Numbered from the stretch's first letter, positions 44,796 through 63,100 are shown. The stretch: DNA of 64,000 nt from Burkholderiales bacterium (GCA_947473125.1 CANJDH010000015.1:184-64183); one strand, 5' to 3'. Notes: generated from the sequence alone by a model not told the origin. Translations and numbers: made by a program.

Positions 44796-44978
44796 ATGGC
44801 CGCCATCGTCGCTTGCCCCACGTGCGCTGCAGAAGTCGAATGGTCGCCGGCAAACCCGTTCCGGCCGTTTTGCAGCGAGCGCTGCAAGCTGATCGACCTC
44901 GGCGCGTGGGCGGACGAGCGCTATCGGGTACCGGTCAAGGATGAGCCGGATCCCGGCAGCGGCAACCCACCGACCTGA
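44796..44978 (+). CDS. yacG: DNA gyrase inhibitor YacG (zinc finger)
   Basis: CPTC...[22 protein letters not shown]. Confidence 0.9.
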
Positions 44979-45011: not shown

Positions 45012-45635
45012 TCAGCCGAAATCGTCTTCGGCGGCAGGCAAGTGGGAAACATCGCCCCACCCCAAGAGGCGCCACCTTCCGGCGTCAATCTCGATTTCGT
45101 TGATGCTCGAATTGAGCAGTTGCCAAGTGCGCGGTGCGTCCAGTGCCAGGTTTGCCGCGATCCGATACATCGCATCGAGCACGCCGCCGTGGGTCACGAT
45201 GATCACCTTGCCTGCGGTGTCGGACGCGATCGACTCGAGGCAGGCGCGGACACGATCAGACAATCGCAGCAAACTCTCGCCATCCTGCATCGCCCAGGCC
45301 GGATCCCGTGTTTGCCAGCGCTCAAAAGCCTGTGTGTCGTGCACCTGAATCTGCTCGCGCGTCATTCCCTCGAACACCCCAAAACAACGCTCGCGCAGGC
45401 GCTGATCCGTCTCCACGGCAAGCCCGGTCGCGGCCACAATCGGGCGTGCCGTCTGCAGGGTGCGGCCAAGGTCGCTCGCCACCAAACGATCACACATGAC
45501 ATCGCGCAGCCGCTCGGCAGTGGCCTGTACCTGACGCTCGCCGACCGGCGACAGCTCGCTATTTTTCTGCCCCTGGATCCGATGCTCGCGATTCCACATG
45601 GTTTCCCCGTGGCGGATGATCACAAAGTGCGTCAT
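45012..45635 (-). CDS. Histidine phosphatase family protein (GpmB/CobC-like)
   Basis: The product has the RHGET catalytic motif (IIRHGETMWN) and a downstream VTHGGV motif. It lies 37 nt downstream of the radical SAM gene. Confidence 0.85.
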   Translation of the reverse strand: MTHFVIIRHGETMWNREHRIQGQKNSELSPVGERQVQATAERLRDVMCDRLVASDLGRTLQTARPIVAATGLAVETDQRLRERCFGVFEGMTREQIQVHDTQAFERWQTRDPAWAMQDGESLLRLSDRVRACLESIASDTAGKVIIVTHGGVLDAMYRIAANLALDAPRTWQLLNSSINEIEIDAGRWRLLGWGDVSHLPAAEDDFG

Positions 45636-45672
45636 GCACCGTGCCCCATGCGCGGCGCCAGCAAGCGGCGCC

Positions 45673-46737
45673 TCATTGCAATGTCACCGGGATGCGCTTG
45701 CGCCCAAACGGCCGCTCGAATACGCCGAAGCGCCCGGCCACATGGGTGCCGCACTGGGCGCAGCGCTGCGCCTCGTTAATCCGGTAATCACCCGCTTCGT
45801 ACCAGTCGCGCCGCACCAGCCCGGCGCCACACCCGGGACACCAGGTCGACCCGCCCTCGGGGTCATGGATGTTGCCGGTGTAGACAAAATGCAGGCCTTC
45901 CTCTTGCGCGATGCGGCGCGCATGCCTGATCGTGGCAGGCGGCGTCGCTGCCTTGTCGGTCATCTTGAAATCGGGATGGAACGCCGTAAAGTGCAGCGGT
46001 ACGTCGGGCCCGAGTTCCGCGCGGATCCAGCGCGACAGCGCCCGCACTTCGTCATCCGAATCGTTTTCGCCAGGGATCAACAGCGTGGTGATCTCAAGCC
46101 AGCATGCAGTCTCGTTCTTTACATATGAGAGGGTGTCAAGAACGTCGGCAAGGCGCGCCGCGCACAGGTCTGCGTAGAACCTCTCGGTAAACCCCTTGAG
46201 ATCGATGTTGGCCGCATCCATTTTCGCGTAGAACTCGGCACGCGGGGCTGCGTGGATGTACCCCGCCGTCACCGCCACCGTTTGCACATCGACGGCATGG
46301 CACGCATCGGCCACATCCATCGCGTACTCGGCGAAGATCACCGGGTCGTTGTAGGTAAACGCCACCGAGCGTGCGCCGGCTGCCTGCGCAGCGCGCGCAA
46401 TCACTTCTGGCGACGCTGCGGCGCCCAGCTTGTCCATGTCGCGCGATTTCGAGATATCCCAGTTCTGGCAGAACTTGCAGGCCAGGTTGCAGCCGGCCGT
46501 GCCGAACGACAGCACGCTGGACCCGGGATAAAAATGATTCAACGGCTTTTTCTCGATCGGGTCGATGCAAAAACCCGACGACCTGCCGTAGGTGGTCAGC
46601 TGCATCGCATTGCCCTCGCGCTGGCGCACGAAACACGCGCCGCGCTGGCCTTCGTGCAGCTTGCAGTCACGCGGACACAGGTCGCACTGCACGCGTCCGT
46701 CGGGCAGTGCGTGCCACCAGCGCGCCGGATGGTTCAT
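45673..46737 (-). CDS. AmmeMemoRadiSam system radical SAM enzyme
   Basis: The N-terminus has the extra Cys motif CDLCPRDC. The product has the CNLACKFC radical SAM cluster motif and overall PFL-activase-like features. Its start overlaps the upstream stop (ATGA). Confidence 0.9.
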   Translation of the reverse strand: MNHPARWWHALPDGRVQCDLCPRDCKLHEGQRGACFVRQREGNAMQLTTYGRSSGFCIDPIEKKPLNHFYPGSSVLSFGTAGCNLACKFCQNWDISKSRDMDKLGAAASPEVIARAAQAAGARSVAFTYNDPVIFAEYAMDVADACHAVDVQTVAVTAGYIHAAPRAEFYAKMDAANIDLKGFTERFYADLCAARLADVLDTLSYVKNETACWLEITTLLIPGENDSDDEVRALSRWIRAELGPDVPLHFTAFHPDFKMTDKAATPPATIRHARRIAQEEGLHFVYTGNIHDPEGGSTWCPGCGAGLVRRDWYEAGDYRINEAQRCAQCGTHVAGRFGVFERPFGRKRIPVTLQ

Positions 46738-48170
46738 TCCGAAAATTTGGCCACGGCGTAGCGCAACACCCTAACGTCCTCCGACCAATAGGCGGCATCA
46801 AGCCCGGCCTTTTGCTTGAGCGCCGCGAGAAACGCACGCGGCTGCGGGATCTGCTCCCACACCTGGGGCAGAAAAGTCGAGCGCCGTCCCGCCGCCTCGA
46901 AAATCAGGCCATCCTGCAGCGGCGCCAGTTGTGCGGCCAGATCCGCCTCATCCGCGAACACCAGCGGTACGGGCGCGCTCAGCAAGGACACCTCGACCTG
47001 AATCGATGGCAGGTCCTGTGCCGTCACTGCGGCGAAACGCGGATCGCGTGATGCGGCCGCCACCGCATTCTCTGTGACGTCGACACCCAGCGCGCGATGC
47101 GCCGCAAGCGAACCGATGCAGCCACGCAGCGCGCCGTGTTGGGTCAGCGTGACAAAGGTGGCTGCGGCATTTTCGAGCCAGGGCACGGCCGCGAAAGGTG
47201 TGGCCGGCAGCCCCAGAAATCGCTCGATCGAAGCGCGCGCGAGGTGCACCAGCACCGCACCACCATCGGCTGGAAACCATTGCGGGACAACGGTTGCTGG
47301 CACATCTGCAGCCGCGGTGCCGGCTCCCTCGCGCGTTTCGGAGAGCGCGAATGCCGCGTAACCGACGACGCGATCGCGTCCGCCGGCGGTGTCGCCGGAG
47401 TTGCACTGGTCGATCAACTCGACTGCCATGCCGCGCCTGCGTACTACCTGCATCAAGGCGTTGACCGGCGTGGCGCCGCACGCCTGCTCATGGCTGATGC
47501 GCGCATCACCCGCGAGGACTGCCGCAACAGTGGCATTGTCGATACGCACCGCCTCCCGATACGGGTGGTAATGTGACAAGTCGCTGCTCACCACAATCAG
47601 GGTCTCCGCGCCGCCCCAGAGCAGGTCCAGTACCTCGGCCACCATGTCGGGAGTCGCCTCGCCCACCACCAGCGGCACCAATCTGAAATCACCCAGCGCT
47701 TCAACCAGAAACGGCAGCTGCACTTCGAGCGCATGCTCAGCCGCGTGGACCGGTCGCGCCGCCACCACCTGGCGCAGCGCGGCCAGCGCGCGCACCGCGT
47801 CGCGATCCACGGCGACCTGACCCAAAGGCGTTTCGAACGCATCGGCCTCAGGCAAGGCCAGGCCGCGCACATGGACCCGGTGCGCCGGCCCGAGCAACAC
47901 CACGCGGCGAATCGTGCCGCGCAGCGCACCCAGCCGCGCATAGGCGCGCGCCGCCGTCTGGCCCGAGTACACATACCCCGCGTGCGGCACGATCAGCGCT
48001 TTGGGCGGCGCGGGTTCCGGGCCTTCGGCCAACTCGGCGCGTGCCATGCGCAGCAATGCCTGCACGTTGTCCCGCAGGCGCCCCGGCTCTGCCGGATAAA
48101 ACGAGCCCGCCACGGCAGCGGGGCGCACCTCGGAGAGCCGCGCATCGCGGGCGTCAGCCAACGGCATCAT
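46734..48170 (-). CDS. Fused AmmeMemoRadiSam system protein B (Memo-like) and protein A (AMMECR1 domain)
   Basis: The N-terminal half has Memo motifs (VAGSFYP, IVPHAGYVYSG, DLSHY). The C-terminal half has the AMMECR1 motif GALRGCIGS. ATG 48170 overlaps the upstream stop (ATGA). Confidence 0.88.
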   Translation of the reverse strand: MMPLADARDARLSEVRPAAVAGSFYPAEPGRLRDNVQALLRMARAELAEGPEPAPPKALIVPHAGYVYSGQTAARAYARLGALRGTIRRVVLLGPAHRVHVRGLALPEADAFETPLGQVAVDRDAVRALAALRQVVAARPVHAAEHALEVQLPFLVEALGDFRLVPLVVGEATPDMVAEVLDLLWGGAETLIVVSSDLSHYHPYREAVRIDNATVAAVLAGDARISHEQACGATPVNALMQVVRRRGMAVELIDQCNSGDTAGGRDRVVGYAAFALSETREGAGTAAADVPATVVPQWFPADGGAVLVHLARASIERFLGLPATPFAAVPWLENAAATFVTLTQHGALRGCIGSLAAHRALGVDVTENAVAAASRDPRFAAVTAQDLPSIQVEVSLLSAPVPLVFADEADLAAQLAPLQDGLIFEAAGRRSTFLPQVWEQIPQPRAFLAALKQKAGLDAAYWSEDVRVLRYAVAKFSE

Positions 48171-49726
48171 GCCTTGACCTCGCGCCGCAGTTCCTTCCTG
48201 ACCTGGGCCACTACCGCATCCCAATCATTGAGCCCGGGTTGCCTGAACAGGCGCGCAGAGGGATACCACTCGCACGCGTCGCCATGGTCATGCCAGCGCC
48301 AATCCGCTTGCCACGGCAACAGTATCCACACCGGTCGGCCAAGGGCGCCGGCCAGATGCGCCACCGAGGTATCGACCGTGATGATCAGGTCGAGGTTCAT
48401 CATCAACGCCGCCGTGTCGGAAAAATCCTGAAGATCGCCGCTGACGTCAAGGATGCGCGCACGCGTACCCGGCGCGGCATCGGCCACCTGTCGCGCCGCC
48501 TCCCAGGTTTGCAGGGAGACGAATTGCATCCCCGACGCGTCGAGCAACGGTTCGAGCACTTGCAGGACCAGGCTCTTTTTGCGCGAGCGCCGCGCCGCCA
48601 CCGCATCTTGAATCGCCGGATTGGCCGCCCAGCACAAGCCGACGCGCTTGCCCGACACATGGCCCAGCTTGCCGGCCCAGACCGCCACCTTCGCCGCATC
48701 CGCCTTGAGATAGCCCTGCAACGGAGGAAAGCTGTCCCGCGAACGACGCCGCAAGCGCGGCAGGCTGCCGAACGGCACTTGATAGTGAATCGGCGCAGTC
48801 GTGTTCAACCACGGTACCGGCCGCCTGGTCCAGGCGTCCTCATCGGCGCGCAGTTGGTCGTGGATCGTGGCGCCGGGAAACGACGTGCGAAACAGCGGCG
48901 CCAGGTGCGGCTGGCAGCAGATGATCGCGTGGTGCGCCTCGGCAATCACTTCGGCATAGATCGACGCAAACATGATTTCGTCTCCCAAACCCTGCTCTCC
49001 GTGCAGGATGATGGTCTTGCCCGCCAGCGGCTCGCCCTCCCAGCGCGGAAACGGGTAGGGATAGTTCCAGACGTTCGAACCGACCGCGTCGAAGCGATAC
49101 TCGTACTCCTCCCAGCCGCGCTCAAAATTCCCCGTCATCAACAACCAGTGCGCATACTCCCAATGCGCACGCGCATCGGCGGAGGCCAGCGCAACGCTCC
49201 TCTCGTAGTGCGGTTTGGCCAAATCAAAGCGCCGCGCCGAATACAGCGCGATGGCCAGCGCCAGGGTCGCCGCCGCATCGTTCGGCTTCACCTGCAGGTG
49301 CTGCTGGTAGGCGGCAATGGCCTCGTCGAGCCGGTCGTTCTCGAGCAGGCCGTTACCGAGGTTGAGCCATGCCGACGCATGGGTCGGCTCCAGGCGCGCC
49401 GCCTCACGGTAGGCTGCCAGCGCGGCATCGGTACGCCTGAGCGCCCCGTACACCACGCCGAGGTTGTACTGAAACTGCGCCTGGACCGGATGGAGGCGTA
49501 CCGCCTTTTCAATCAAGGCGAGGGCAATCCCGTGCTTCCCGGCAAGATGCGCCAGCACCCCGGTCAAATGCAATGCATCCGGATTCTCCGGCTCGACCTC
49601 CATGATCTTCAGGCACAGGCTCTCGACCTCGGCCCGATTGCCTGCCTGAAACTGGCTCAGCGCCAATTGCACCGCGTCGGCGACCGACACCGCGGTGGGT
49701 TGCATGTTGCCTGCAGCGCGCTCCAT
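48167..49726 (-). CDS. TPR-repeat protein with C-terminal glycosyltransferase family 9 (heptosyltransferase)-like domain
   Basis: The N-terminus has about six TPR units. The C-terminal domain has GEQGLGDEIMFASIY and ITVDTSVAHLAGALGRPVW, which are typical of GT9-like folds. Confidence 0.8.
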   Translation of the reverse strand: MERAAGNMQPTAVSVADAVQLALSQFQAGNRAEVESLCLKIMEVEPENPDALHLTGVLAHLAGKHGIALALIEKAVRLHPVQAQFQYNLGVVYGALRRTDAALAAYREAARLEPTHASAWLNLGNGLLENDRLDEAIAAYQQHLQVKPNDAAATLALAIALYSARRFDLAKPHYERSVALASADARAHWEYAHWLLMTGNFERGWEEYEYRFDAVGSNVWNYPYPFPRWEGEPLAGKTIILHGEQGLGDEIMFASIYAEVIAEAHHAIICCQPHLAPLFRTSFPGATIHDQLRADEDAWTRRPVPWLNTTAPIHYQVPFGSLPRLRRRSRDSFPPLQGYLKADAAKVAVWAGKLGHVSGKRVGLCWAANPAIQDAVAARRSRKKSLVLQVLEPLLDASGMQFVSLQTWEAARQVADAAPGTRARILDVSGDLQDFSDTAALMMNLDLIITVDTSVAHLAGALGRPVWILLPWQADWRWHDHGDACEWYPSARLFRQPGLNDWDAVVAQVRKELRREVKA

Positions 49727-49849: not shown

Positions 49850-52789
49850 ATGGACAACCGCAGCATCTTCTCCAAGACCGGCAAAGGCTCACTGGAGATC
49901 ACCAAGAAAAGCATCAAGCTTTCCAGCGAAGAACGTCAGGCGTTGATCCTGGTCGATGGCAAGACCGCCTACGGCGAGTTGCAGGAAAAACTCAGCCGCG
50001 TCCCCCCGATGAAGCTGCGCGTGGTGTTTGACAAACTGGTCGAACTGGAATTGATTCGGGAATTTGTAGCAAAGGCCGAGCCGCCTGCGGCCGCGCCGGC
50101 GGTGGCCGTGGCAGCGAATTCGGTGCGCGCTCTTGATGGCGGCAGTGACCTCGATTTCACTGCACTGATTTCGCCTGCCAAACCCGCTCCTTCGGCGACT
50201 CCCGCTCCCCGCGCTCCCGCACCTGCCCCCGCGCCGGCACAGCCGGCCGTGGCGACGCCGAAGTCGACTGCGGACGCGGACGAGGAAGCGCGAAAATTCC
50301 ACGAACTGATGTTTGGCACTCCCAATGCAAGTACCGGCGCCGAAGCGGAAGCCACGCGCAAGGTGGAAGCCGACCGCGCCGCGCAGGAACAAGCCGCTCG
50401 CCAAGCCGCCGAGGCTGAAGCGCGCCGCCAAGCCGCTGCCGAAGCCGAGGAAGAAACACGCAAGGTGCGTGAAGAAATCCTCCGCAAGGAACAGGAACGC
50501 AAGGCTGCCGAACAGGCTGCCCAGGCTCGCGCCGCCGAAGAAGCAGCACGCCGCAAGGCCGAAGCCGAACGCCTCGCACGCGAGCAGCGCGAGCGCGAAG
50601 AGCGTGAACGCCTGGAGCGCGAGCGTGCCGAAAAGGAACGCCTCGAACGCGAGGAAGAAGCACGCCGCAAGGCCGAGGCCGAACGCATTGCCCGCGAGCA
50701 GCGCGAACGCGAAGAGCGTGAACGTCTGGAACGCGAACGCGCCGAAAAGGAACGCCAGGAGCGTGAAGAAGCGCAGCGCCGTGCCGCCGAAGAAGAGGTG
50801 CGTCGCAAGGCCGAGGCCGAACGCCTCGCCCGTGAGCAGCGCGAACGCGAAGAGCGTGAACGTCTGGAACGCGAACGCGCCGAAAAAGAACGCCAGGAGC
50901 GTGAACAAGCACAGCGCCGTGCCGCCGAGGAAGAGGCGCGCCGCAAGGCCGCCGCCGAGCAACATGCCCGCGAAGAGCAGGAGCTTGAGGCGCGCCATCG
51001 TGAAGAGCGCGAGAAGCTCGAGCGCAGTCGGCTCGCAAGGGGGCGGGAGGAACAGGAGCGCGCCGCAGCCGCCGCGCAGGCTGCTGCATCGTTGTCCGCT
51101 CCGCTTGCTTCGGCCGCACCTGCGATTGCGCTGGTTGAGCCCGCACCCGCGCCTGCGCCACCTGTACCGGCAGCGGCGACTGAAATTTCACCCCCGGCCC
51201 CGACTCCGGCGCCGGCCGCCGCAGATACAGGTTCACTTGATTTCAACGCCGAAGCCAAGGCGGCATTCGACGCCGACCTTGATTTCGCACCGGCTTCTTC
51301 CGAGCAGCGACGCAAGGCCGAAGTTGATCAGTTGCTCTCCAACACCGGCGGCGTGCCCCTGGACGGCGCTACCCCGTTGACCGGCGGCGGACCGGATACC
51401 TTCGGCGATACCGGGTCGGTGATCGATCCGTTCACCGATGACAGCACCGGCACCACCAAGGAACAGGAAGCCGCCTCGCGCAAGGAGATCGAGCAGGAGG
51501 CCAAGGAACGCGCCAAGGCGGAAGCCAAGGCGCAAAAGGAGGCGGAGCGCGAAGCCAAGCGCCTCGCCAAGGAAAATCGCGTCAAGGTGCCGGGCCGCGG
51601 GCCGTCGATCGGCGTCATCATTGCCGTGCTGCTGGTGTTCGGCCTGGTCGGCGGTGTCGGCTACCTGATGTTCAAGCCAATCGACAAAGCCGCGATCGAG
51701 CAAACGCTGAGCGAACGCCTGGGCGAGCCGGTCACGGTAGCCAGCGCCAAATTCTCGCCGTTCCCGCCGGAGCTCACCTTGGGCGGCATGACAGTCGGCG
51801 CACTCAAGCTCGGCAACGTGGTTGCGCGGCCCGACCCCTCTTCCCTGATTTCCGACCACAAGGTCTGGAAATCGGTCGAGGTCAGCGGCCTCTCGCTGAG
51901 CGCCGAAGCGGCGCGCGGCATACTCGCGCTAGCGACACGCGATGCCCCCAAGATCGCGGCCAGCCGCACCGAAATCCAGAAGGTACGCATCACCGACATG
52001 GAGATCACCGGGCTACCGGTGAGCGTCCCGAAATTCAACATCGACGCCCTGCTCAGCGCGTCTGGCGGCCTCAAGCAGGTCACCCTGGCGACAACCGATG
52101 ACAAAGTGCGGGCGCTGCTGCAACCCGACGAGAAAGGCTGGCTGGTCGACTTCGAATCACGCGGCCTACTGTGGCCGGTCGGGCCCAAGGTGGCCTGGGA
52201 ATCGATTCGCGGCAAGGGTGTCGCCAGCGCGCAAGGCATCAAGTTCGAGGACTACAGCATCACCCAATTCGGCGGCACCAGCCGCGGCGCGGGCGAGTTG
52301 AGCTGGAACGACGGCTGGAAGTTCAACGGCAACCTCGATACCGGCGGCCTTGAATCCGAACTCATCGCCAAGGCGTTTTACGACGCCACACCGGTGTCGG
52401 GCGGGATTGAAGGCAAACTGGCCATTTCGATGAGCGGCACCAGCCTCGCGCGCATGCTGCAAACGCCGCAGATCGACGGCGTGGTGAGCGTCAACAAGGC
52501 CATCGTCAAGGGTGTGGACCTGGCGCGCACCGCACAGACCGGCGCTGCCGCACCCGGCTCGACGCGCTTCTCCGATTTTTCGGCAACCATTGCCGCCAGC
52601 GGCGGCAGGCTGCAACTCAAGGACATCAAGGGCGTGTCCGGGCTGCTCACCGTGAGCGGACTGGCCGAAGTCGGGTCGGACAAAGCGCTCGGCGGCGCGC
52701 TCACGGTAGAGCTGGGCGTGGGCGGGTCGCGCGCCAAGGCCAATATCAAACTCTCGGGCACCGTGACTGACCCGAAGCTGAGCAAGTAA
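49850..52789 (+). CDS. 979-aa bitopic membrane protein with a long cytoplasmic E/R/K-rich region and an AsmA-like periplasmic domain
   Basis: Uninterrupted ORF with no signal peptide. Domain order is a small N-terminal domain, Pro/Ala-rich linkers, an E/R/K-rich repeat helix, one TM helix and an AsmA-like C-terminal domain. The single TM helix is IGVIIAVLLVFGLVGGVGYLMF. The C-terminal part contains FSPFPPELTLGGMTVG and TRFSDFSATIAASGGRLQLKDIKGVSGLLTVSGLAEV, which resemble AsmA-family N- and C-terminal motifs. Confidence 0.85.
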   Translation: MDNRSIFSKTGKGSLEITKKSIKLSSEERQALILVDGKTAYGELQEKLSRVPPMKLRVVFDKLVELELIREFVAKAEPPAAAPAVAVAANSVRALDGGSDLDFTALISPAKPAPSATPAPRAPAPAPAPAQPAVATPKSTADADEEARKFHELMFGTPNASTGAEAEATRKVEADRAAQEQAARQAAEAEARRQAAAEAEEETRKVREEILRKEQERKAAEQAAQARAAEEAARRKAEAERLAREQREREERERLERERAEKERLEREEEARRKAEAERIAREQREREERERLERERAEKERQEREEAQRRAAEEEVRRKAEAERLAREQREREERERLERERAEKERQEREQAQRRAAEEEARRKAAAEQHAREEQELEARHREEREKLERSRLARGREEQERAAAAAQAAASLSAPLASAAPAIALVEPAPAPAPPVPAAATEISPPAPTPAPAAADTGSLDFNAEAKAAFDADLDFAPASSEQRRKAEVDQLLSNTGGVPLDGATPLTGGGPDTFGDTGSVIDPFTDDSTGTTKEQEAASRKEIEQEAKERAKAEAKAQKEAEREAKRLAKENRVKVPGRGPSIGVIIAVLLVFGLVGGVGYLMFKPIDKAAIEQTLSERLGEPVTVASAKFSPFPPELTLGGMTVGALKLGNVVARPDPSSLISDHKVWKSVEVSGLSLSAEAARGILALATRDAPKIAASRTEIQKVRITDMEITGLPVSVPKFNIDALLSASGGLKQVTLATTDDKVRALLQPDEKGWLVDFESRGLLWPVGPKVAWESIRGKGVASAQGIKFEDYSITQFGGTSRGAGELSWNDGWKFNGNLDTGGLESELIAKAFYDATPVSGGIEGKLAISMSGTSLARMLQTPQIDGVVSVNKAIVKGVDLARTAQTGAAAPGSTRFSDFSATIAASGGRLQLKDIKGVSGLLTVSGLAEVGSDKALGGALTVELGVGGSRAKANIKLSGTVTDPKLSK
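50549..51076 (+). repeat. In-frame tandem DNA repeats (114, 138 and 138 bp plus one degenerate unit) encoding RRKAEAERLAREQREREERERLERERAEKER...
   Basis: Units start at 50549, 50663, 50801 and 50939 (CG[CT]CGCAAGGCCGA...). Units 2 and 3 are near-identical at the DNA level. Confidence 0.85.
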
Positions 52790-54116: not shown

Positions 54117-57100
54117 TCACTGAATGGTCACGGTGAAAGTTACAATGCCGGTCGCCTGGGGGTTCAACTGGCCGCTGAAATTCCAGACAAAAGCACCGCT
54201 CGCTCCGGCTCCCGGGTCGGTCAGGGCACCCGTCACGAGGCCGCCGGGAGTGGTGTTGAAAGCCGGAATGTCGGGTGCCGAGCCATTGTTGGTACGCACC
54301 GTAAACGGCGGCGTCGAGTCACGAATCACCAGCGAGGTCAAGCGCTCGCTGCTGGCGTTGGTGTAGATGATGCGGTATTGCAGTCGGTCGCCCACCTTGC
54401 CGCTGTTGTTGGTGCCGAATCCGGCGCCGCTGCTGGCCACGCACGCCGCCCCGCCCGGGTTCGCCGCAGCATTGTCGAGATTGCACACCTCTTTTTGCAG
54501 CCGCAAGCCATCGCCTCCCGTGGCCGAGCCCGACAGCGTCGTATCGACGACGGTGAGCGTGGTGCTCAGCGCCGGCAATGAGTTCGTGTAGCTGAAGGTC
54601 CCGGTCACTGTCGCCTGATTCTGCGCCCCGAACGGCGCACTTGGCGGGATTGACTCCTTGACGATGATACACAGGCGCCGTCCGCTCGGGTCACCTGCAA
54701 TGGTGTCGTTTGGATCGAGAAGCACGGTGCTGCCTGCCACGCCCGAGCCGCCGATGACCAGTGCGGTTTCGGCCGGATCAATCGTGCCGTTGCAATTCGA
54801 ATCCCGGTAAATCACCTCGCCCCAGCCGGTCATGTTCGGCCGGGCTACCGCATTGACGCTGAACACCACGCCGCCAACCGACCCCGGCACGTAGGTGTGC
54901 GGGTAGAACACCACCTCGCCGGGCGGCGCCTGTTTGGTCTGGTCAGCTGTAAAGCGGTTGATCGGTACGTCGCCAAAGTTAAGACTTTGATAGCTCGTAT
55001 TGGCCGCAGGCGCAAAGCTGATCGAATCCGCCGGGCGACTGGCGCACGTGGTGCCGGTAGCGGTACGGCAATAGGTATACCCACTGTTCGGAATATCGGA
55101 AATGAGCTGTGTAGCCCCCGCGCTGCCACCGGTCGACAGATGACCTTGCGGGTTGGTTTCGATGACACACAAAAGCGCCGGCGGCCCGGCCGGTACCGCA
55201 AAACGATAGTCACCACTGACGTCGGTAGTAGTGGTCGCATAGATGGTCGCGGCGCAGTTAGTCAATTGCACCGTCACACCCTGGATGCCCTGCCCCAGGT
55301 TGGCGGGTTGCTGCGGATTGGCAGGCGCCTCGACCCCCTGGAGAACACCATCATTGGCGGTGGCGCCGGCCCCGCCGGTATCCCTGAACACCTTGCCCGA
55401 AATCAACGCACCTGAGCGCAGGCCGATATTCCAGTTCGACGATGGAACCAGCCCGATGCTCACCGTGGCGTAACCACCGCTTGCCGGCGCCCGGAAGAAC
55501 CACGCCGTCGGCGCAACCGCCACCGCGTTGATGGCGCTGTTGGTCACGACGATCTGGTAATTGCCGGGATCCACGTTATTGAACGTAAAGTCACCAGTCC
55601 CCGGCGTTAGCGCGACCGACTGCACCACCAGCCCGCCGGTACCCACGAGGTTGACAAAGACGTTGACGCCGGTCGCCCAGGTCTCGCCGGGTGCGCCCAG
55701 GTCAAGCACGCCGTTATCGTTGGAATCCACATACACCCTGCCGCTCACCGGCACACCGGCGCTGTACACGATCAGGTAGGCCACGTTCGACTGCGAGCCT
55801 GCGGTCGGTGTTTGCGTGGTGGTCACGCCCGACGCGAAGTTGGGCCAGCCCAGCGCCGGACTGACCGAGCTGCTGGTCACGTCCACCGTGACGCTACACG
55901 AACCGCCGCCCGGAATATCGCCGCCGGTCACGGTAAACGAGGTGTTGCCGCCGCTGGCAGTGCTGCTCACGCTGGCGCAGGTGCCGCGCACGTTGGGCAC
56001 CGCCGCCAGTTGCATGTTGGTCAGGCCATCGGTAAACGACATGCCGGTGAGCGTCACGCTATTCGGGTTGGTCACCGTAAAGGTCATGCTCGCCACCCCT
56101 CCAACGGGAATCGACGGCACACCAAACGCCTTGCTGATCGAAGGCGCTGCCGCGTTCACGGTCAGGTTGGCAACGTTGCTGGGCGACCCGGTGACGCCGG
56201 GGGTCACGACATTGGCGGTGACGCCAGTGGTCGAATTGGGCAAGGTGCCCGGCGTATCGGACGTCACCGGCACATCGATCCGGCAGGTGCCGGGCGTTGC
56301 ACTGACGCGCGCCGGCACCACCGCACTGGTGCTGCCGGTGCCGCTTAACCGGACGCCGATTGCCCCGCCTTGCGTGCCGGACCAGACCCCGGTACCTGCC
56401 AGGAACTGGACGGTGCTCACACCGCAGGTGTTGACCACGGTCCCGCTGGTCGTCACGCGCATGTTGGAGAACGGGTCGCTAAACATGACTGTCGCGCCCG
56501 AAGTTGCGATCGATGCATTGAGGTTGCTCAGCACAAACGACATGGTTGCCACGCCGCCGGCGGAAATGGTTGACGGCGTGAACGACTTGGTGATCTCGAC
56601 GGCCGATGGCGGCAACGGCGCTACCGTCAGGGTTGCATTGGTCAGGTTGCCGGTGCCGCTTGAGGCGCTCACGGTGCCGGTCACGTTGTTGAACGTGCCC
56701 GATCTGGTCGCCTGGACGTTGACGGTGATAGTGCAGGTGGTCGGCGAGCCGAGCGAACCGGCGCCGAGCAGGCCGTTGACCAGGCTGATGACATTGGTGC
56801 CGGGCGTGGCTGTCAGCGTACCGTTGCAGTTGTTGATTGCGCCCGACGGGCTGTCGATCACCATCCCTGCGGGCATGGTATCGGTGAAGGCAAGGGTGTC
56901 AATTTCGACCGTGTGCCGATTTTGGATCGTGAAGGTCAGCGCAGTGGTCTGGCCGATGGTGACGCTGCTCGGGCTGAAGGATTTCGCAATCGTCGGCGGA
57001 GCGGTCACGATCAGGGTTGCAGTGGCATTGTTGCCGACGTGGGTGCTCGATGTGATCGGGGTCGTACTGTTGTTGAACGCTCCCGGAACACTGGTTGTGA

Positions 57101-60100
57101 CCCTGACCGTTACCGTGCACACAGTACCGATCGCCGCAGCGCCTGCGAACGCACCGAGGGTCGCAATCACGCCGGTATCACCCGCAGAAATCGCGCCGCC
57201 GAACAAATCGGTGCGAGTGAACCCACACCCGCCGGCTTGGGCGGAAGTATTGTCGAACAGGGTCATGCCAGCGGGGAACACATCACGAAACGTCATGTTC
57301 GCTTGTGCGGCAAGCGAATTCTTGGTGATACTAAACACCAGGTCTGACTGCCCCCCCACCGCTATCGGGTTGGTGCTGAACGCCTTGGTAATCGACATCG
57401 GTCGTGTTGCCGTGCCGACCGACAATGTGGCGCTGGCCGGCGCGATCGGGCTGCCGGCATTGGTGGTCGTCACGCCGCTCGTCGCCACCGTATTGGTGAT
57501 ATTGACGTTGTTGACCGTGCTTTCTACGTTCACGGAAATAGTGCAACTCCCCGATGCCGGAATCGCCCCGCCGGTCAGGGTAAGCGAGGTGGCCAGTGCT
57601 GCAGAAGTTGCCGTTCCGGCACATCCGTTCACCAAATTCGGCGTCGCGGTGGTGCGCAGATTTGCCGGGTAGGCATCGGTGAGATCCACGCCTGTGATGG
57701 GCACGCCATTCGGATTGATCAAGGTCAACGTCATAACGGTGGCGGTGACAGCAGCGCCAACCGTCGAGGGTGTGAAGGACTTGCTGATCGATGGAGGCGC
57801 CATCACCGTCAATTGCGCCGTCGCCTGCGTTCCGCTGGCGCCGGCAGGTTGGGCCAGCGTGATTGCGCCGGTAGAGTTGGTGTACAGGCCCATGGCGCTG
57901 GCCGTCACTTGCCGGGTGTAGACGCAGGTGCCGCCGGCGGGGATCACAAAGTTGGTGCCCCCGGTACCAAGTGCGGCAAACGAGTTGCCGTTGGCGGCCG
58001 CCGTAAACGATTGCACCACGCAGCCGGCGCCCGTGACCGTGCCGCCCGCCGCTGCGGTGTTGGTAATGCCTGTCGGGTAGGTATCGGTAAACACGGTGGC
58101 CGCACTGGTGGCAGCAACGCTGTTCGGGTTGAATACCGATATCGACAAGGTACTCACGCCCCCTGCCGCAATGGTCGAGGGAGTAAACGTCTTGGTGGCG
58201 ATCACCGGCGCGGTGGTGCTTGCCGGCGGGTTGACCACCAAGGTGCCTGAGGTACTTGCCGTGCTGCCGGCGTTACCCGTCGTGGTGATGCCCGTGCTGT
58301 TGAGGAACACGCCACCGGTGTTGGATGTCACGTTCACGGTCAGCGTACACGTGGTATTTGCCGGCACGGTGCCGCTGTAGCTCAACTGGTTGTCGTTCGC
58401 AATGCCGGTAATCGTGCCCGCAGCCGCACACCCCGCGCCGCCAATGGCAGGTGTCGGCGTCGCGGTGTTGATCATCCCCGACGGATACACGTCCGTCAGG
58501 GCGACGCCGGTAACGTTCGCGCCTGCGGTCGGGTTGGGATTGAACAAGCTGATTGTCATCACCGATGCCACACCGGCGTTCACCGTAGTGGGCAAGAAGC
58601 TCTTGCTCACCCGCAGCGGTTGCAGCACGGTCAATGCGCTGCTCGCTGCCGCACCGCTGGGCGCATTGCTCGCGGTGATCGTGCCGGTACTGTTGAGGTA
58701 GATTCCTGCCGCGCTTGCCTGCACATTGACGCTGACCGTGCATGACCCGTTTGCCGGGATGGTGCCACCGCTGAGGGCCACGAGCGACCCGTTGTTGGCT
58801 GCGCTCACCGAACCTCCGCTGCAGGTGGTGGTGCCGGCCGGCGACGCGGTGTTGGTCATGTTCGCCGGGTAGTTGTCGGTAAACGCCCCTCCGGTGATCG
58901 CAAATCCGTTCGAGTTGCTCAAGGTAATCGTCAACACCGATGCGACGTTGGCACCCACAGTGGCTGGGCTGAAGCTTTTCACGACCGTCGGGGCGGCCAT
59001 GGCGCGCAAGATGTCGGTCGCGGTATTGCCGACGGTCGCCCCGGAGGTCACCGCGTTCGTCACGTTCACGTAGCTGCCAGCGGATGCTCCCGCAGCCACC
59101 GCGACGCTGAACACACAGGTGCCGGAAGTCGCCACGGTCGCGTTATTGAGGCGGATGGTTGCCGGTCCGTTTGAGGTCGTCAGCGTGCCGCCGCACATCG
59201 CAGTGCTTGCCGGCGTAACCACTGTCATGGTTGCAGGAACCGTCGGCAACAGGTCAGTCAACCCCACCTGGGTCATCGGTGCGGCATTCGGATTGGTAAT
59301 CGTGAAGGTCAGCGTCGAGGTGCCGCTGGGCTGCACCGGGTTGACGGTAAATACCTTGCTCACAAACGGTCGCGCAACGCTGAGTGAACTGTTTGCCGCC
59401 GCAGCGTTGCTGCCCGCATTCGACGTCGTCACCGCGCCGGCGCCTATGGTGTTGTTATACGAGCCCGCTGTCGCCGAAGCCCTGATGTTGACGGTGACTG
59501 TACAGGTGCTGTTGGGAGAGATTGTGCCGCCGGACAGCGCTATCGACGCGCCTGCATTTGCGGATGTCACGGTACCACCGGCGCAGGTAGTGGCGCCGTT
59601 GTCCGGCGTATCGTTGGTGTAAATGCCCGCGACCACCGGGTAGGTATCAGTGAACCCGACGCCGGTGATCGGCGTGGTGTTCGGGTTGGTGAGCGAAATA
59701 ATCAAGGTCGACGCGCCATTCGCCGCGACCGCGGGAGGAACAAACACCTTCGACACGGTCGGGGGCAGCAGTACGGTCAGGGTCGCGCTGGCCGGCAAAT
59801 TGTTGGCGCCGCCGGTCGACGTCAGGGCGCCAGCCGGCACCGTATTCACATAGGGTCCCGCCGCCGCCGCAGTAACCCGCACCGTGAGAATGCAATTGCC
59901 GTTGCTAGGCAAATAGAGATTTGTGGCGCTGAGGTTGGCCGCCCCCGCAGTGGCTGTCAGCGTGGGTGCTGCCGTCAATGGCACGCCATTGCAGGTGGTC
60001 GCCGCGTTCGACGGGTTCGCATTGACCATCCCTGCCGGATAGCTGTCCACCAGCGCACCGGCGCTGGCCGCAATGCTGCTCGGATTGAGAATCGTGAAGG

Positions 60101-63100
60101 TGATGGTCGCCACCCCGCCTTGCGCGATCACGCTGGGCGCAAACGATTTGCTGATCAACGGCGTCGGCAGCACATTGAGCACCGCAGTGCCCGAGGTTGC
60201 GCCGGTTCCACCGCCACCGGTCACGCCGGTGGTGAAATTCAGGTTGGCCCCGGACACCGAGGTGGTGACAGAGAATGTGATCGTGCAACTGCCCGCCGCC
60301 GGCACGCTGCCGGCATTGATGCTGATGCTGGACGCCCCGGCTGCCGCCGTGGGCGCGGTGGTCACCCCGGTGCAGGTGCCGCCGACAACTGGTGACGCGA
60401 GCACCATGCCGGATGGAAAGGTGTCGGTGAAGCTGATCGGCGAGACGGCTCCCGCCTGCGAGTTGGACAAGGTCAAGGTAACCAACGACGTCCCGCCGGC
60501 CGTGATCGACACCGGCGAAAAGGCCTTGCTGATGCCGATCAAGCCTGCCGTAAGGACCGCGCTCGTCGCATTACCGGTCCCGCCGTTGGTGGAGGTGACG
60601 CGCACACCGGCGGCGCCGGTGCCGGCGCCAGTATCGATGGTGTTGGTATAACTGCCCGCAACCGCTGTTTGCACGTTAACGGTGATCACACATTGCCCGC
60701 CAACGGCCAGCGTCAACCCGGCGCCGCCCACGGCGACCTGCGTACCACCGGCCGCTGCGGTGATGGTTCCTGCCAGAAGCGATCCCGCCGTACAGTTGGC
60801 AACCGCACCGGGTGTCGCGGTATTGACCAGATTTGCGGGATAGCTGTCGGTAAACGTCACGCCGGTCAGTGTCGACCCATTGAACGCCGGGTTGCTCACC
60901 GTGATCGACAGTACCGTCGCCGTGCTCAGCGCCACCGTCGAAGGAGTGAAGACCTTCGAGATTACCGGCGGCACGACCCCGATCAGGCTGGCAGTGGCCG
61001 CCGTGCCGATGCCGGCATTGCTGGTGGTGACCTGGCTGGTTGAGTTGAGGTGCGAACCGACCGTGGTGGTGGTCACGCCGGGAACGTTGATGGTGCAACT
61101 ACCCCCGGCCGGCACCGTCAACCCGGATACCGAGAAGGCCGTCACCGAAGGCGAAGAAGTGACGCCGTTGAACCCCCCGGCAGTGCAGGTACCCGTGATC
61201 GTGGTGGCCGCAAACGTCATGCTGGTCGCACCGGGGAACGTATCGGAGAAACTGGCACCGGTAACGGCTGATCCGTTCGAGTTCGAGATCGTGAAACTCA
61301 TCGTCGACAGCCCGCCAACCGGAATCGTCGAGGGCGTAAAGGTTTTAGCGAGGGTCGGCACGGCCAGGCCGCTTCGGTTGAGAGTGCCCGAACCCACCGA
61401 GGCGGGCGCATTGGCCCAGCTGGCACTGGCAGTGTTGATGTAGTCTCCGTTGGCGGCGGTAGTGACGCTAATGGTGAGGGTACAACTGCCCAAAGGCGCC
61501 AGCGTCACCGCCGACAGAGACACGCTGCCCGCCGCGCTGGTCGCGGTCGCACTCGAACCGGAGGTGCAATTGATGGTGCGGTTGGGCGAGCCCGCGGTGG
61601 TCATCGCTCCTGGAGCAACCGGATAGGTATCGCTCAGAGTGCCGCCGGTGAGCGTGGTGGTGGTGTTGGGGTTGGTGACGACGATCGTAAGCGTCGAGAT
61701 GCCGGCACCCGTGACCGAGACCGGATTGAAACTTTTGGCGATGGTGGCCGCACCGATCACCGTCAACTGCGCGACATTGGAACCGTTGCCCGCCGTGGTG
61801 TTGCCCTGATACTGCGCACCGCTGGTCTGGTTGTTGTAAATCTTCGCACCGGTGGTGACGGTACTGCCGACATTGACCGTGATCGTGCAGGTGGCGCCGG
61901 CGGCGATAGTCACGGCATTTGCGGCCCGCACGATCACGCCGCTGGTCGCGGCAGTGGTGTTGACCGGAATGGCGGGCACATTCGTAGCCGCGCCACAGCC
62001 GCTGAAACTCACCGACGGGGTCGCAGCGTTGAGCAAACCGGATGGGTAGGTGTCGCTGAACGTCACCTGATTGACAGCCACCGCATTCGGGTTGGTAATG
62101 GCGATCGACATGGTCGATGTCGGCGTGTTGGTTCCGGTCGTGCCCAGCGGCGGCACGTTGCCCGGCACGGTATTGGCCGACGCCTGGATCGCACCTGGGC
62201 TGAACGATTTCACGATGCTCAACTGGGCCACGCCCAATACAGCAGCCCCGGAAGTGCCGGTACCACCGTTGGCCGAGGTGACCGGGTTGGTCAGGTTCGA
62301 AAGATTAGTCGGCCCGGTAACGCTGCTGTTGTGGGTGACGGCGACGGTGATGGTGCATGAGCCGTTCGGCGCGATTGTCGCCCCCGGGTTCATGCCGATG
62401 GTATTGCCGCCGGCCACTCCGCCGGTCAGCGTGCCCGGGGTCGAGCCCGCAGTACACACTACTGAAGAATTGGACGGCGTGGCGTTGATCATCCCGGTCG
62501 GATAGGTATCTGCAATGACCACACCGTTCAGGTTGGACGGGTTGGTGGACGGATTGGTCAGCACCAGGCTGAGCGTCGAGGTGCCGTTGAGCGGGATCGA
62601 TGACGGCGAAAAGGTCTTGACGATGTCCGGCGGCCCGATCACGTTTCCCGTGGCGGCCGAACTCGATGTACCGAATTGCGTCTGGATCGTCTGCCCGCTG
62701 TACGAGATGCTGGCCGTGTTGGTAATCAGGGTGCCGGCCGGTGGCGCTGCGGGGCGACCGCTCAAGCCGTCGTTCAGGATGGTGTCAAACGCAACTGCCG
62801 TGGCTTCGCCGAAGTTGAGCGTGCCGCCTAACGTACCGTTGGCGCCGTGTCCAAGACGGAAGCGCACGCACGGCGCCGCCGAAGGGGCGCACGAAGGCGC
62901 CGAAGTGATGTATTCAGCGACGTCGGCATCCACCGTGTCGCTGTAGGTGGCCACTGCTGGGGCGACGGGCGAACCGACCGGCGTAGCGGTCACGCGCAGA
63001 CTGCCCGGCACATACGTGGTATTGGCGGGGATCGGGTCCGTGACCGTCAGGAACGTACCGGCGTCGATGCCCGTATTCGCCATCGAAATGTTCCAGCGAA

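What the first reader, a model, noticed from the sequence alone, without database searches (positions are those of the whole stretch)
45012..49726. AmmeMemoRadiSam module with a fused B-A protein, translationally coupled to a TPR/GT9-like protein
Seen in sequence: three minus-strand genes are chained by ATGA start/stop overlaps at 48167-48170 and 46734-46737. They encode a TPR plus GT9-like protein, a single polypeptide combining Memo-like and AMMECR1 domains, and a radical SAM enzyme with CNLACKFC. A histidine phosphatase gene (RHGET) follows after 37 nt. Established: the AMMECR1 / Memo-like / radical SAM trio is a recognised conserved gene system whose substrate and function remain unknown, and it has eukaryotic homologs (AMMECR1, MEMO1). 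Inference: tight coupling to a TPR protein with a glycosyltransferase-like fold, plus a phosphatase, suggests a candidate partner or substrate-delivery component. The set may work as a 4-5 gene pathway rather than a trio.
Basis: partly seen in the sequence, partly recalled or inferred. Interest (0 to 1): 0.65.

Follow-up and report, generated by a model that had tools for sequence, protein, structure and literature searches.

The report
AmmeMemoRadiSam operon beside unrelated neighbours
This is an ordinary copy of a known but functionally unsolved three-domain enzyme system (Memo-like, AMMECR1, radical SAM); in one small group of uncultured Burkholderiales it has landed between a TPR-glycosyltransferase gene and a phosphatase gene, and comparison with other genomes gives no sign that those two neighbours are part of the system.

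Summary
Four minus-strand genes lie at the stated coordinates: TPR + GT9-like, a Memo–AMMECR1 fusion, a radical SAM enzyme, and a histidine phosphatase. The ATGA overlaps are at 48167-48170 and 46734-46737, and a 37-nt spacer precedes the phosphatase.

The middle two genes are a textbook AmmeMemoRadiSam (AMRS) system. All three NCBIfam models score above cut-off. The B-A fusion is not special: 16 of 55 comparable loci have it, and it was reported in 2007.

The inference that the TPR/GT9 protein and the phosphatase are partners is not supported.
- None of the 80 closest AMRS loci from other species has either gene within 8 kb.
- All nine TPR/GT9-linked radical SAM genes form one clade, so the linkage arose once.
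- That linkage travels with a wider synteny block of unrelated genes.
- The nearest outgroup TPR/GT9 genes sit in tyrS–dtd–TPR/GT9–phosphatase, with no AMRS.
- Phosphatase orthologs belong to a tyrS–dtd … glyA–nrdR neighbourhood.
- In two sister genomes the phosphatase lies 15 and 24 kb downstream of the radical SAM gene.

Most likely the AMRS cassette sits between two older neighbours and is co-transcribed with them. What AMRS does remains unknown. Interest is low.

The parts
48167..49726 (-). TPR + GT9-like glycosyltransferase-fold protein, 519 aa (alternative start at 49705 gives 512 aa). It is a neighbour, probably co-transcribed, and there is no evidence that it belongs to the AMRS system.
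   Evidence: Pfam finds TPR families and a partial Glyco_transf_9 hit. The AF2 model has pLDDT 89.5. The whole protein resembles the TPR+GT-B enzymes SPINDLY and OGT. Orthologs at 42-49% identity lie in tyrS-dtd-TPR/GT9-HisPhos loci without AMRS.
49091..49684 (-). TPR superhelix, residues about 15-212, twelve helices.
   Evidence: Secondary structure of the AF2 model. TPR_1, TPR_2 and TPR_16 hits.
48170..49084 (-). GT-B, GT9-like domain, residues 215-519. It carries the invariant motifs HGEQGLGDE (residues 242-250) and VDTSVAHLAGALG (residues 451-463).
   Evidence: Alignment A1 invariant columns. The domain-only AF2 model matches WaaF 1psw, WaaC 2h1h/2gt1, 3tov, then TibC. No solved homolog is detectable by sequence.
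46734..48170 (-). AmmeMemoRadiSam B-A fusion protein, 478 aa. The Memo-like domain is residues 18-273 (47352-48119). The AMMECR1 domain is residues 308-476 (46743-47249).
   Evidence: PF01875 173 bits, PF01871 140 bits, TIGR04336 266 bits and TIGR04335 176 bits. Nearest solved proteins are MEMO1 and the archaeal AMMECR1 homologs MM0484 and PH0010. The translation contains RGCIG and DPRF, the AMMECR1 motifs named in PMC2034487.
45673..46737 (-). AmmeMemoRadiSam radical SAM enzyme, 354 aa. CNLACKFC lies at 46468-46491. Extra conserved Cys groups are C18/C21/C25/C35 and C300/C303/C326/C329.
   Evidence: TIGR04337 618 bits against a cut-off of 220. Invariant cysteines in alignment A2. The nearest solved relative is PflA.
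45012..45635 (-). Branch-1 histidine phosphatase, 207 aa, with the RHGET motif. It is a neighbour. Its orthologs belong to the tyrS-dtd ... glyA-nrdR neighbourhood.
   Evidence: PF00300 194 bits; no NCBIfam equivalog reaches its cut-off. Ortholog contexts are shown.
48167..48170 (-). ATGA stop/start overlap between TPR/GT9 and B-A.
   Evidence: Sequence. The same 4-nt overlap is present in L001 and L175. It is replaced by gaps of 79 nt in L176 and 130 nt in L002 in the gene calls, and by roughly 345 nt in L102 as estimated from tblastn hit ends.
46734..46737 (-). ATGA stop/start overlap between B-A and the radical SAM gene.
   Evidence: Sequence.
45636..45672 (-). 37-nt spacer between the radical SAM gene and the phosphatase. 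It contains the hairpin GGCGCC-N7-GGCGCC (45654-45672) with no T-run after it.
   Evidence: Sequence. No terminator-like or promoter-like site was called here.

Best explanation
The locus holds a canonical AmmeMemoRadiSam system of the Burkholderiales type: a Memo-like/AMMECR1 fusion plus its dedicated radical SAM enzyme, in the order B, A, rSAM.

In one narrow, uncultured Burkholderiales lineage this two-gene cassette lies between a TPR/GT9-like gene and a histidine phosphatase gene. In related lineages those two genes are direct neighbours in a variable stretch of the housekeeping tyrS-dtd ... glyA-nrdR neighbourhood. In this organism the four genes are most likely read as one transcript from a promoter upstream of the TPR/GT9 gene. 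That is an inference from the overlaps, the 37-nt gap, and the absence of predicted terminators.

The TPR/GT9 protein and the phosphatase are bystanders inherited from the insertion site, not components of the system.

Mechanism of the AMRS core, inferred from family knowledge and not shown here:
- The PflA-related radical SAM enzyme cleaves SAM at its CX3CX2C cluster and starts radical chemistry on a substrate.
- The same substrate is handled by the metal site of the Memo-like domain (PHAG, GPAH, SDLSH and CG motifs present) and by the conserved cysteine of AMMECR1 (RGCIG).
- The three act as one modification enzyme on a still unidentified substrate. Aravind and co-workers have proposed an RNA base.
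For: Shown here:
- Family assignments are above the curated cut-offs.
- B, A, rSAM order on one strand is the norm in 33 of the 80 sampled loci, and B-A fusion occurs in 16 of 55.
- 0 of 80 nearest AMRS loci from other species have a GT9-like or His_Phos homolog within 8 kb, even at E<=0.01.
- All nine TPR/GT9-linked rSAM sequences form one NJ clade, with Roseateles as sister.
- The linkage travels with a larger synteny block: the divergent 890-1054-aa protein and the giant DUF7933 protein in all four long-contig relatives, and NMT1 in three of the four.
- Five distinct loci with TPR/GT9 at 42-49% identity are arranged tyrS-dtd-TPR/GT9-HisPhos without AMRS.
- HisPhos at 47% identity occurs in tyrS-dtd-PBP-HisPhos ... 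glyA-nrdR with neither TPR/GT9 nor AMRS.
- In sister genomes the order is TPR/GT9, B-A, rSAM, then 24 kb or 15 kb, then HisPhos, TerC, glyA, nrdR, all on the same strand.
- Clustering the neighbours of the 80 AMRS loci found no accessory family in more than 12 loci.
- No terminator or promoter was predicted between the genes.
Against: - Within the clade the TPR/GT9, B-A, rSAM order is kept down to about 56% TPR/GT9 identity. Three members keep the 4-nt overlap (window, L001, L175). Some selective value of co-expression cannot be excluded.
- Phyletic co-occurrence across whole genomes was not tested. I could not check whether genomes with the dtd-linked TPR/GT9 carry AMRS elsewhere.
- The 80 comparison loci are the best-scoring ones (60-72% rSAM identity), not a random sample of all AMRS systems.
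- The direction of the rearrangements (insertion versus relocation) is inferred from a handful of contigs.
- The biochemical mechanism of AMRS is untested anywhere, as far as the searched literature shows.
Confidence: 0.75

Rival explanations
1. The TPR/GT9-like protein, and possibly the phosphatase, is a true accessory of AMRS in this lineage. The TPR domain would present a protein substrate, or the GT domain would glycosylate the AMRS substrate or product, giving a 4-gene pathway.
For: - ATGA overlaps at both junctions.
- Gene order conserved in nine related contigs spanning 56-100% TPR/GT9 identity.
- TPR+GT-B architecture resembles protein glycosyltransferases such as OGT and SPINDLY, and the GT domain also matches TibC. 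A protein-directed activity is therefore plausible.
Against: - Single evolutionary origin.
- 0 of 80 other AMRS loci have it.
- The linkage is no better conserved than that to the unrelated upstream genes: the 890-1054-aa protein and the giant repeat protein in all four long-contig relatives, NMT1 in three of four.
- The overlap is lost in L002, L176 and L102.
- Orthologs of both flanking genes function elsewhere without adjacent AMRS.
- The phosphatase is 15-24 kb away in sister genomes.
Confidence: 0.12
2. The TPR/GT9-like protein and the histidine phosphatase form their own two-gene functional module, for example a protein or glycan heptosyl-type transferase with a phosphatase that processes donor or acceptor. 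The AMRS cassette merely split that module. This is compatible with the best explanation for AMRS, but it assigns meaning to the flanking pair.
For: - TPR/GT9 and HisPhos are directly adjacent in five distinct loci, overlapping in three (L004, L008, L010) and separated by 7 nt in L009 (L004/5, L008, L009/10, L099, L100).
- They still bracket AMRS in the window and in L095.
- TPR/GT9 and HisPhos show similar divergence between the clades, 42-49% against 39-43%.
Against: - HisPhos orthologs sit in the same tyrS-dtd ... glyA neighbourhood without any TPR/GT9.
- TPR/GT9 occurs without HisPhos next to it in L006/7, L001, L002, L175 and L176.
- No known GT9 pathway uses a branch-1 histidine phosphatase (own knowledge).
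- All the examples come from related Burkholderiales.
Confidence: 0.25

Closest known systems
AmmeMemoRadiSam system (NCBIfam TIGR04335 protein A / TIGR04336 protein B / TIGR04337 radical SAM enzyme)
   Same: All three models are matched above cut-off. The genes are adjacent in the usual B, A, rSAM order. The CX3CX2C cluster, the AMMECR1 RGCxG and DxRF motifs and the Memo metal-site motifs are all present.
   Different: Nothing of substance. B and A are fused, as in about 29% of comparable loci and as already noted by Balaji & Aravind 2007 (PMC2034487). The only peculiarity is the lineage-specific position between a TPR/GT9 gene and a phosphatase gene.
GT9 heptosyltransferases (WaaC/WaaF) and the protein heptosyltransferase TibC
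   Same: The GT-B fold of residues 215-519 matches them best. There is a G-x-G-D motif at the start of the N-terminal Rossmann half and a D-T-S-x-x-H-L-A-x-A-x-G motif in the C-terminal half. These resemble the GT9 signature (own knowledge), and Pfam gives a partial PF01075 hit.
   Different: Sequence similarity is marginal. The Pfam hit covers only 53 of 247 profile positions. NCBIfam heptosyltransferase I scores 19 bits against a cut-off of 185. No PDB hit is found by profile. The protein also carries an N-terminal 12-helix TPR domain that LPS heptosyltransferases lack. Donor and acceptor are unknown.
TPR + GT-B protein glycosyltransferases (OGT, SPINDLY; GT41)
   Same: The overall architecture is the same: an N-terminal TPR superhelix followed by a GT-B catalytic domain. 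These are the top whole-chain Foldseek matches.
   Different: The catalytic domain is GT9-like, not GT41. Global TM scores are low (0.3-0.4), so the resemblance is one of architecture, not orthology.
Pyruvate formate-lyase activating enzyme (PflA) family of radical SAM activases
   Same: This is the nearest solved and named relative of the radical SAM protein.
   Different: The scores are far below the PflA cut-offs (47 against 232 bits). The AMRS enzyme has extra N- and C-terminal cysteine groups. No glycyl-radical enzyme partner lies in the neighbourhood.

Membership tests
AmmeMemoRadiSam system | Radical SAM enzyme matching TIGR04337 above cut-off, with a CX3CX2C motif | tested here: met
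   618 bits against a cut-off of 220. CNLACKFC is at residues 83-90.
AmmeMemoRadiSam system | Memo-like protein B (TIGR04336 / PF01875) | tested here: met
   266 bits against a cut-off of 26; PF01875 173 bits.
AmmeMemoRadiSam system | AMMECR1-like protein A (TIGR04335 / PF01871) with the RGCxG and DxR-aromatic motifs | tested here: met
   176 bits against a cut-off of 99; PF01871 140 bits. RGCIG and DPRF are in the translation. The motif definition comes from PMC2034487.
AmmeMemoRadiSam system | The three components are encoded together | tested here: met
   B-A is fused and overlaps the rSAM start by 4 nt. The same order is seen in 33 of 80 other loci.
   0 of 80 loci. Single-origin clade. 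Both flanking genes occur elsewhere without AMRS.
Glycosyltransferase family 9 | Sequence match to PF01075 or the heptosyltransferase models over the domain | tested here: inconclusive
   PF01075 scores 26.7 bits, above the cut-off of 22, but covers only profile positions 153-205 of 247. TIGR02193 scores 19 bits against 185. There is no PDB hit by profile.
Glycosyltransferase family 9 | GT-B fold closest to WaaC/WaaF | tested here: met
   Foldseek top hits are 1psw, 2h1h, 2gt1, 6dfe and 3tov, with probability 1.0 and TM 0.56-0.62, using a model with pLDDT 85.
Glycosyltransferase family 9 | ADP-heptose donor use and transferase activity | not testable with these tools
   Needs biochemistry.
Histidine phosphatase superfamily, branch 1 | PF00300 match with the N-terminal RHG catalytic motif | tested here: met
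   194.5 bits against a cut-off of 21.7. RHGET is at residues 8-12. No specific equivalog (CobC, GpmB, PspA) reaches its cut-off.
TPR proteins | Multiple TPR repeats forming a superhelix | tested here: met
   TPR_1, TPR_2 and TPR_16 are above cut-off. Twelve helices span residues 15-212 in the AF2 model.

The most novel reading that the evidence does not exclude
In this one Burkholderiales clade the TPR/GT9-like protein has been recruited as a real accessory of the AmmeMemoRadiSam enzymes. It might bind a protein substrate through its TPR domain, or glycosylate the substrate or product. If so, this operon would point to the long-sought substrate class of the Memo/AMMECR1/radical SAM trio.
Probability: 0.1. 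Interest if true: 0.55.

Novelty: new member of a known kind. Interest (0 to 1): 0.2.

Why it matters
AMMECR1 and MEMO1 are human disease-linked proteins whose biochemistry is unknown. A bacterial operon that reliably added a substrate-handling partner would therefore be a valuable lead. The comparative data here indicate that this locus is not such a lead. The extra genes come with the chromosomal site, not with the system. The practical value of the result is negative: this neighbourhood should not be used to infer AMRS function. The uncharacterised TPR + GT9-like family deserves study on its own terms.

Tried and rejected
- Literature. Searches for AmmeMemoRadiSam, AMMECR1 + radical SAM, AMMECR1 + Memo + dioxygenase, and AMMECR1 + MEMO1 found no functional characterisation. 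Burroughs et al. 2019 (JBC) is not held; what I say about it rests on memory. A search for TPR + 'glycosyltransferase family 9' found nothing relevant.
- Sequence search of the PDB. The whole TPR/GT9 profile returned only TPR matches. The GT-domain-only profile returned nothing significant. Only the fold comparison was informative.
- Promoter and terminator scan. It gave counts no different from shuffled sequence, and no site between the four genes. This is weak evidence either way.
- Rfam and tRNA scans. Nothing was found in or near the locus.
- Neighbour clustering around the 80 AMRS loci. The largest clusters were the AMRS genes themselves and their antisense ORFs. Only lineage-restricted neighbours recurred (ispD/ispF, a hydrolase-like ORF, mfd, a LigT-like ORF; annotated from sequence motifs, not by a domain search).
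- A low-GC stretch at 22-26 kb was considered as a possible island. It encodes nrdA/nrdB, so I dropped the idea.
- Mobile-element scars around the B-A/rSAM cassette were considered. Both junctions are clean 4-nt overlaps, so there is nothing to examine.
Full report
**1. What is in the sequence**

Four minus-strand genes occupy 45012-49726.
- A 519-aa protein at 49726..48167. Public gene calls on identical contigs start it at 49705, giving 512 aa.
- A 478-aa protein at 48170..46734.
- A 354-aa protein at 46737..45673.
- A 207-aa protein at 45635..45012.

Both upstream junctions are ATGA stop/start overlaps, at 48167-48170 and 46734-46737. The last gap is 37 nt. It contains a GGCGCC-N7-GGCGCC hairpin with no T-run after it.

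Downstream, the plus-strand pilC-pilD-coaE-zapD-yacG genes converge on the phosphatase (domains identified for ZapD and YacG; the others from their translations). yacG ends at 44978. Upstream, a divergent 979-aa Glu/Arg-rich repeat protein starts at 49850.

A simple consensus scan finds no promoter-like or terminator-like site between the four genes. Its counts do not differ from shuffled sequence.

**2. Identities**

The second protein carries Memo (173 bits) and AMMECR1 (140 bits). It matches AmmeMemoRadiSam protein B (266 bits, cut-off 26) and protein A (176 bits, cut-off 99).

The third protein matches the system's radical SAM enzyme at 618 bits (cut-off 220). It has CNLACKFC and two further conserved cysteine groups.

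The nearest solved relatives are MEMO1, the archaeal AMMECR1 homologs, and PflA. The AMMECR1 part has the RGCIG and DPRF motifs that Balaji & Aravind proposed as the active site (PMC2034487).

The fourth protein is a branch-1 histidine phosphatase (194 bits). No specific equivalog reaches its cut-off.

The first protein has about six TPR pairs, then a domain with only a partial Pfam GT9 hit (26.7 bits).
- An AF2 model of the whole protein (pLDDT 89.5) resembles TPR+GT-B enzymes such as SPINDLY and OGT in architecture.
- A model of residues 215-519 alone (pLDDT 85) matches the GT9 heptosyltransferases WaaF and WaaC and 3tov best, then the protein heptosyltransferase TibC.
- The motifs HGEQGLGDE and VDTSVAHLAGALG are invariant or nearly so across 26 homologs.

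**3. Is the B-A fusion unusual?**

No. Among the 80 best AMRS loci from different GTDB species, 55 show both domains. In 16 of these, B and A lie in one open frame. The fusion was reported in 2007.

**4. Do the flanking genes belong to the system? Starting from AMRS**

I scanned one genome per species with an alignment of diverse radical SAM sequences and kept the 80 best loci. Their rSAM identity is 60-72%. They come from Burkholderiales, Nitrosomonas, Zoogloea, Thauera, many Gammaproteobacteria, Thermoanaerobaculia, Nitrospiraceae, actinobacteria and others.
- tblastn with the GT9-like domain and with the phosphatase found no hit within ±8 kb in any of them at E<=1e-6.
- The same was true at E<=0.01.
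- Clustering all neighbouring ORFs gave no accessory family in more than 12 loci. The recurring families were lineage-restricted, such as ispD/ispF (annotated from sequence motifs).

**5. Starting from the TPR/GT9 protein**

Homologs fall into three tiers.
- **Tier (a), 56-100% identity.** Nine distinct contigs including the window have TPR/GT9, B-A, rSAM.
- **Tier (b), 42-49% identity.** Five distinct loci have tyrS, dtd, TPR/GT9, HisPhos with no AMRS. Stop/start overlaps occur at the dtd/TPR-GT9 junction (4-11 nt) and, in three of them, at the TPR-GT9/HisPhos junction (4-8 nt). One further locus has tyrS, PBP, TPR/GT9 and two unknown genes.
- **Tier (c), 30-43% identity.** Seventy-two loci of paralogs have neither AMRS nor the phosphatase. 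Several are tandem arrays, and L104 has eight copies.

The radical SAM sequences of tier (a) form a single clade in an NJ tree, with Roseateles as sister. The linkage therefore arose once.

In tier (a) the upstream genes are conserved as well: the divergent 890-1054-aa protein and the giant DUF7933 protein in all four long-contig relatives, and NMT1 in three of the four. The TPR/GT9-AMRS adjacency is thus no better conserved than adjacency to obviously unrelated genes.

The 4-nt overlap between TPR/GT9 and B-A is kept in L001 and L175. It is replaced by gaps of 79 nt (L176) and 130 nt (L002) in the gene calls, and by roughly 345 nt (L102) as estimated from tblastn hit ends.

**6. The phosphatase**

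- Orthologs at 47% identity lie in tyrS, dtd, PBP, HisPhos ... glyA, nrdR, without TPR/GT9 or AMRS.
- In two tier-(a) genomes the ortholog (59% and 53% identity) is on the same contig and strand as the AMRS genes. It lies 24 kb and 15 kb downstream of rSAM, next to TerC-glyA-nrdR.
- Direct adjacency to rSAM is seen only in the window, its near-identical contigs and L095.
- Adjacency is likely on several short contigs that carry both a TPR/GT9 homolog of at least 78% identity and a phosphatase homolog. This is an inference from matching contig lengths.
- None of tyrS, dtd, glyA or nrdR is in the window.

**7. Synthesis**

The simplest history has three steps.
- TPR/GT9 and HisPhos were neighbours in a variable stretch between dtd and glyA.
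- In one lineage the B-A/rSAM cassette came to lie between them.
- Further genes accumulated between rSAM and HisPhos in some descendants, while the window's sub-lineage kept the compact form and lost the tyrS/dtd and glyA flanks.

The four genes are probably co-transcribed here. Co-transcription by inheritance of an insertion site is not evidence of shared function. I give the bystander model 0.75, and true recruitment of TPR/GT9 about 0.1. Separately, and compatibly with the bystander model, I give about 0.25 to the TPR/GT9-HisPhos pair being a module of its own.

**8. Mechanism**

For the AMRS core I commit to the family-level model.
- The PflA-related radical SAM enzyme generates a 5'-deoxyadenosyl radical.
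- The Memo-like metal site and the AMMECR1 cysteine act on the same substrate as a single modification machine.
- Contextual work from the Aravind group pointed to RNA base modification (PMC2034487). From my memory of Burroughs et al. 2019, which is not held, it also pointed to isoprenoid modification.

Nothing in this window tests that model. The searched literature holds no biochemical characterisation.

For the TPR/GT9 protein, the architecture and the match to TibC suggest a sugar-nucleotide-dependent transferase acting on a protein or other macromolecular acceptor bound by the TPR domain. This is inference only.

**9. Verdict**

The identification is correct. The proposed extension of the system is not supported. 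This is a new member of a known kind, of low interest.

Noticed in passing
L104 (1229-13183); also L124, L146, L122, L170: The TPR + GT9-like family is large and often occurs as tandem arrays of paralogs. L104 has eight GT9-like domains in a row within 13 kb. The GT domain has no solved homolog detectable by sequence, and the family appears uncharacterised.
   Followed up: partly
window 49850-52789 (+), repeats at 50536-51012: The divergent 979-aa protein has a Glu/Arg/Ala-rich core built from 114-138-nt tandem repeats. Otherwise identical public contigs encode 979-aa or 1025-aa versions, so repeat number varies. It has only weak DUF748/TIGR03545-like similarity at the C-terminal part. It is conserved next to the TPR/GT9 gene in all relatives.
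   Followed up: partly
window 54117-63962 (-): A giant 3281-aa ORF carries 15 DUF7933 repeats plus SdrD_B and DUF11 domains. It runs almost to the end of the window. It is syntenic in L001, L002, L175 and L176.
   Followed up: no
one search hit list (P0122, P0124-P0126, P0129-P0131, P0134, P0137, P0138 and others): Many representatives at 55-60% identity to the AMRS radical SAM enzyme are 900-1150 aa long, with the rSAM domain at the N-terminus. One 823-aa protein has it at the C-terminus and may be a B-A-rSAM triple fusion. The architectures were not examined.
   Followed up: no
L051-L053, L057, L060, L062, L064-L066, L068, L070, L084, L087-L089, L093, L094, L044: In 18 of 80 loci (Thermoanaerobaculia, Nitrospiraceae, some Proteobacteria) the AMRS-type radical SAM gene has no Memo or AMMECR1 homolog within ±8 kb. 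The trio is therefore not always clustered.
   Followed up: no
L019, L023, L039-L042 and other Rhodocyclales/Burkholderiales loci: ORFs that look like ispD and ispF by sequence motif recur a few kb upstream of AMRS in 10-12 of the 80 loci. This is probably lineage synteny. It is worth noting because an isoprenoid link has been proposed for Memo (own memory of Burroughs et al. 2019).
   Followed up: no
L015 (contig JABDRC010000180.1, 4.6 kb): A contig labelled 'Halobacteria archaeon' MAG carries B, A and rSAM genes 54-72% identical to this betaproteobacterial locus, making it the best rSAM hit of all. It is likely a mis-binned bacterial contig.
   Followed up: no
hits 9grx_1 and 7wff_a: The GT9-like domain model also matches a subunit of the chloroplast NDH-PSI supercomplex with TM about 0.6. 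A GT9-like fold seems to be used there as a structural subunit.
   Followed up: no
window 45654-45672 (-): A perfect 6-bp GC hairpin (GGCGCC gcttgct GGCGCC) begins at the first base after the rSAM stop codon, in the 37-nt spacer before the phosphatase. No T-run follows, so it is not a canonical terminator.
   Followed up: no
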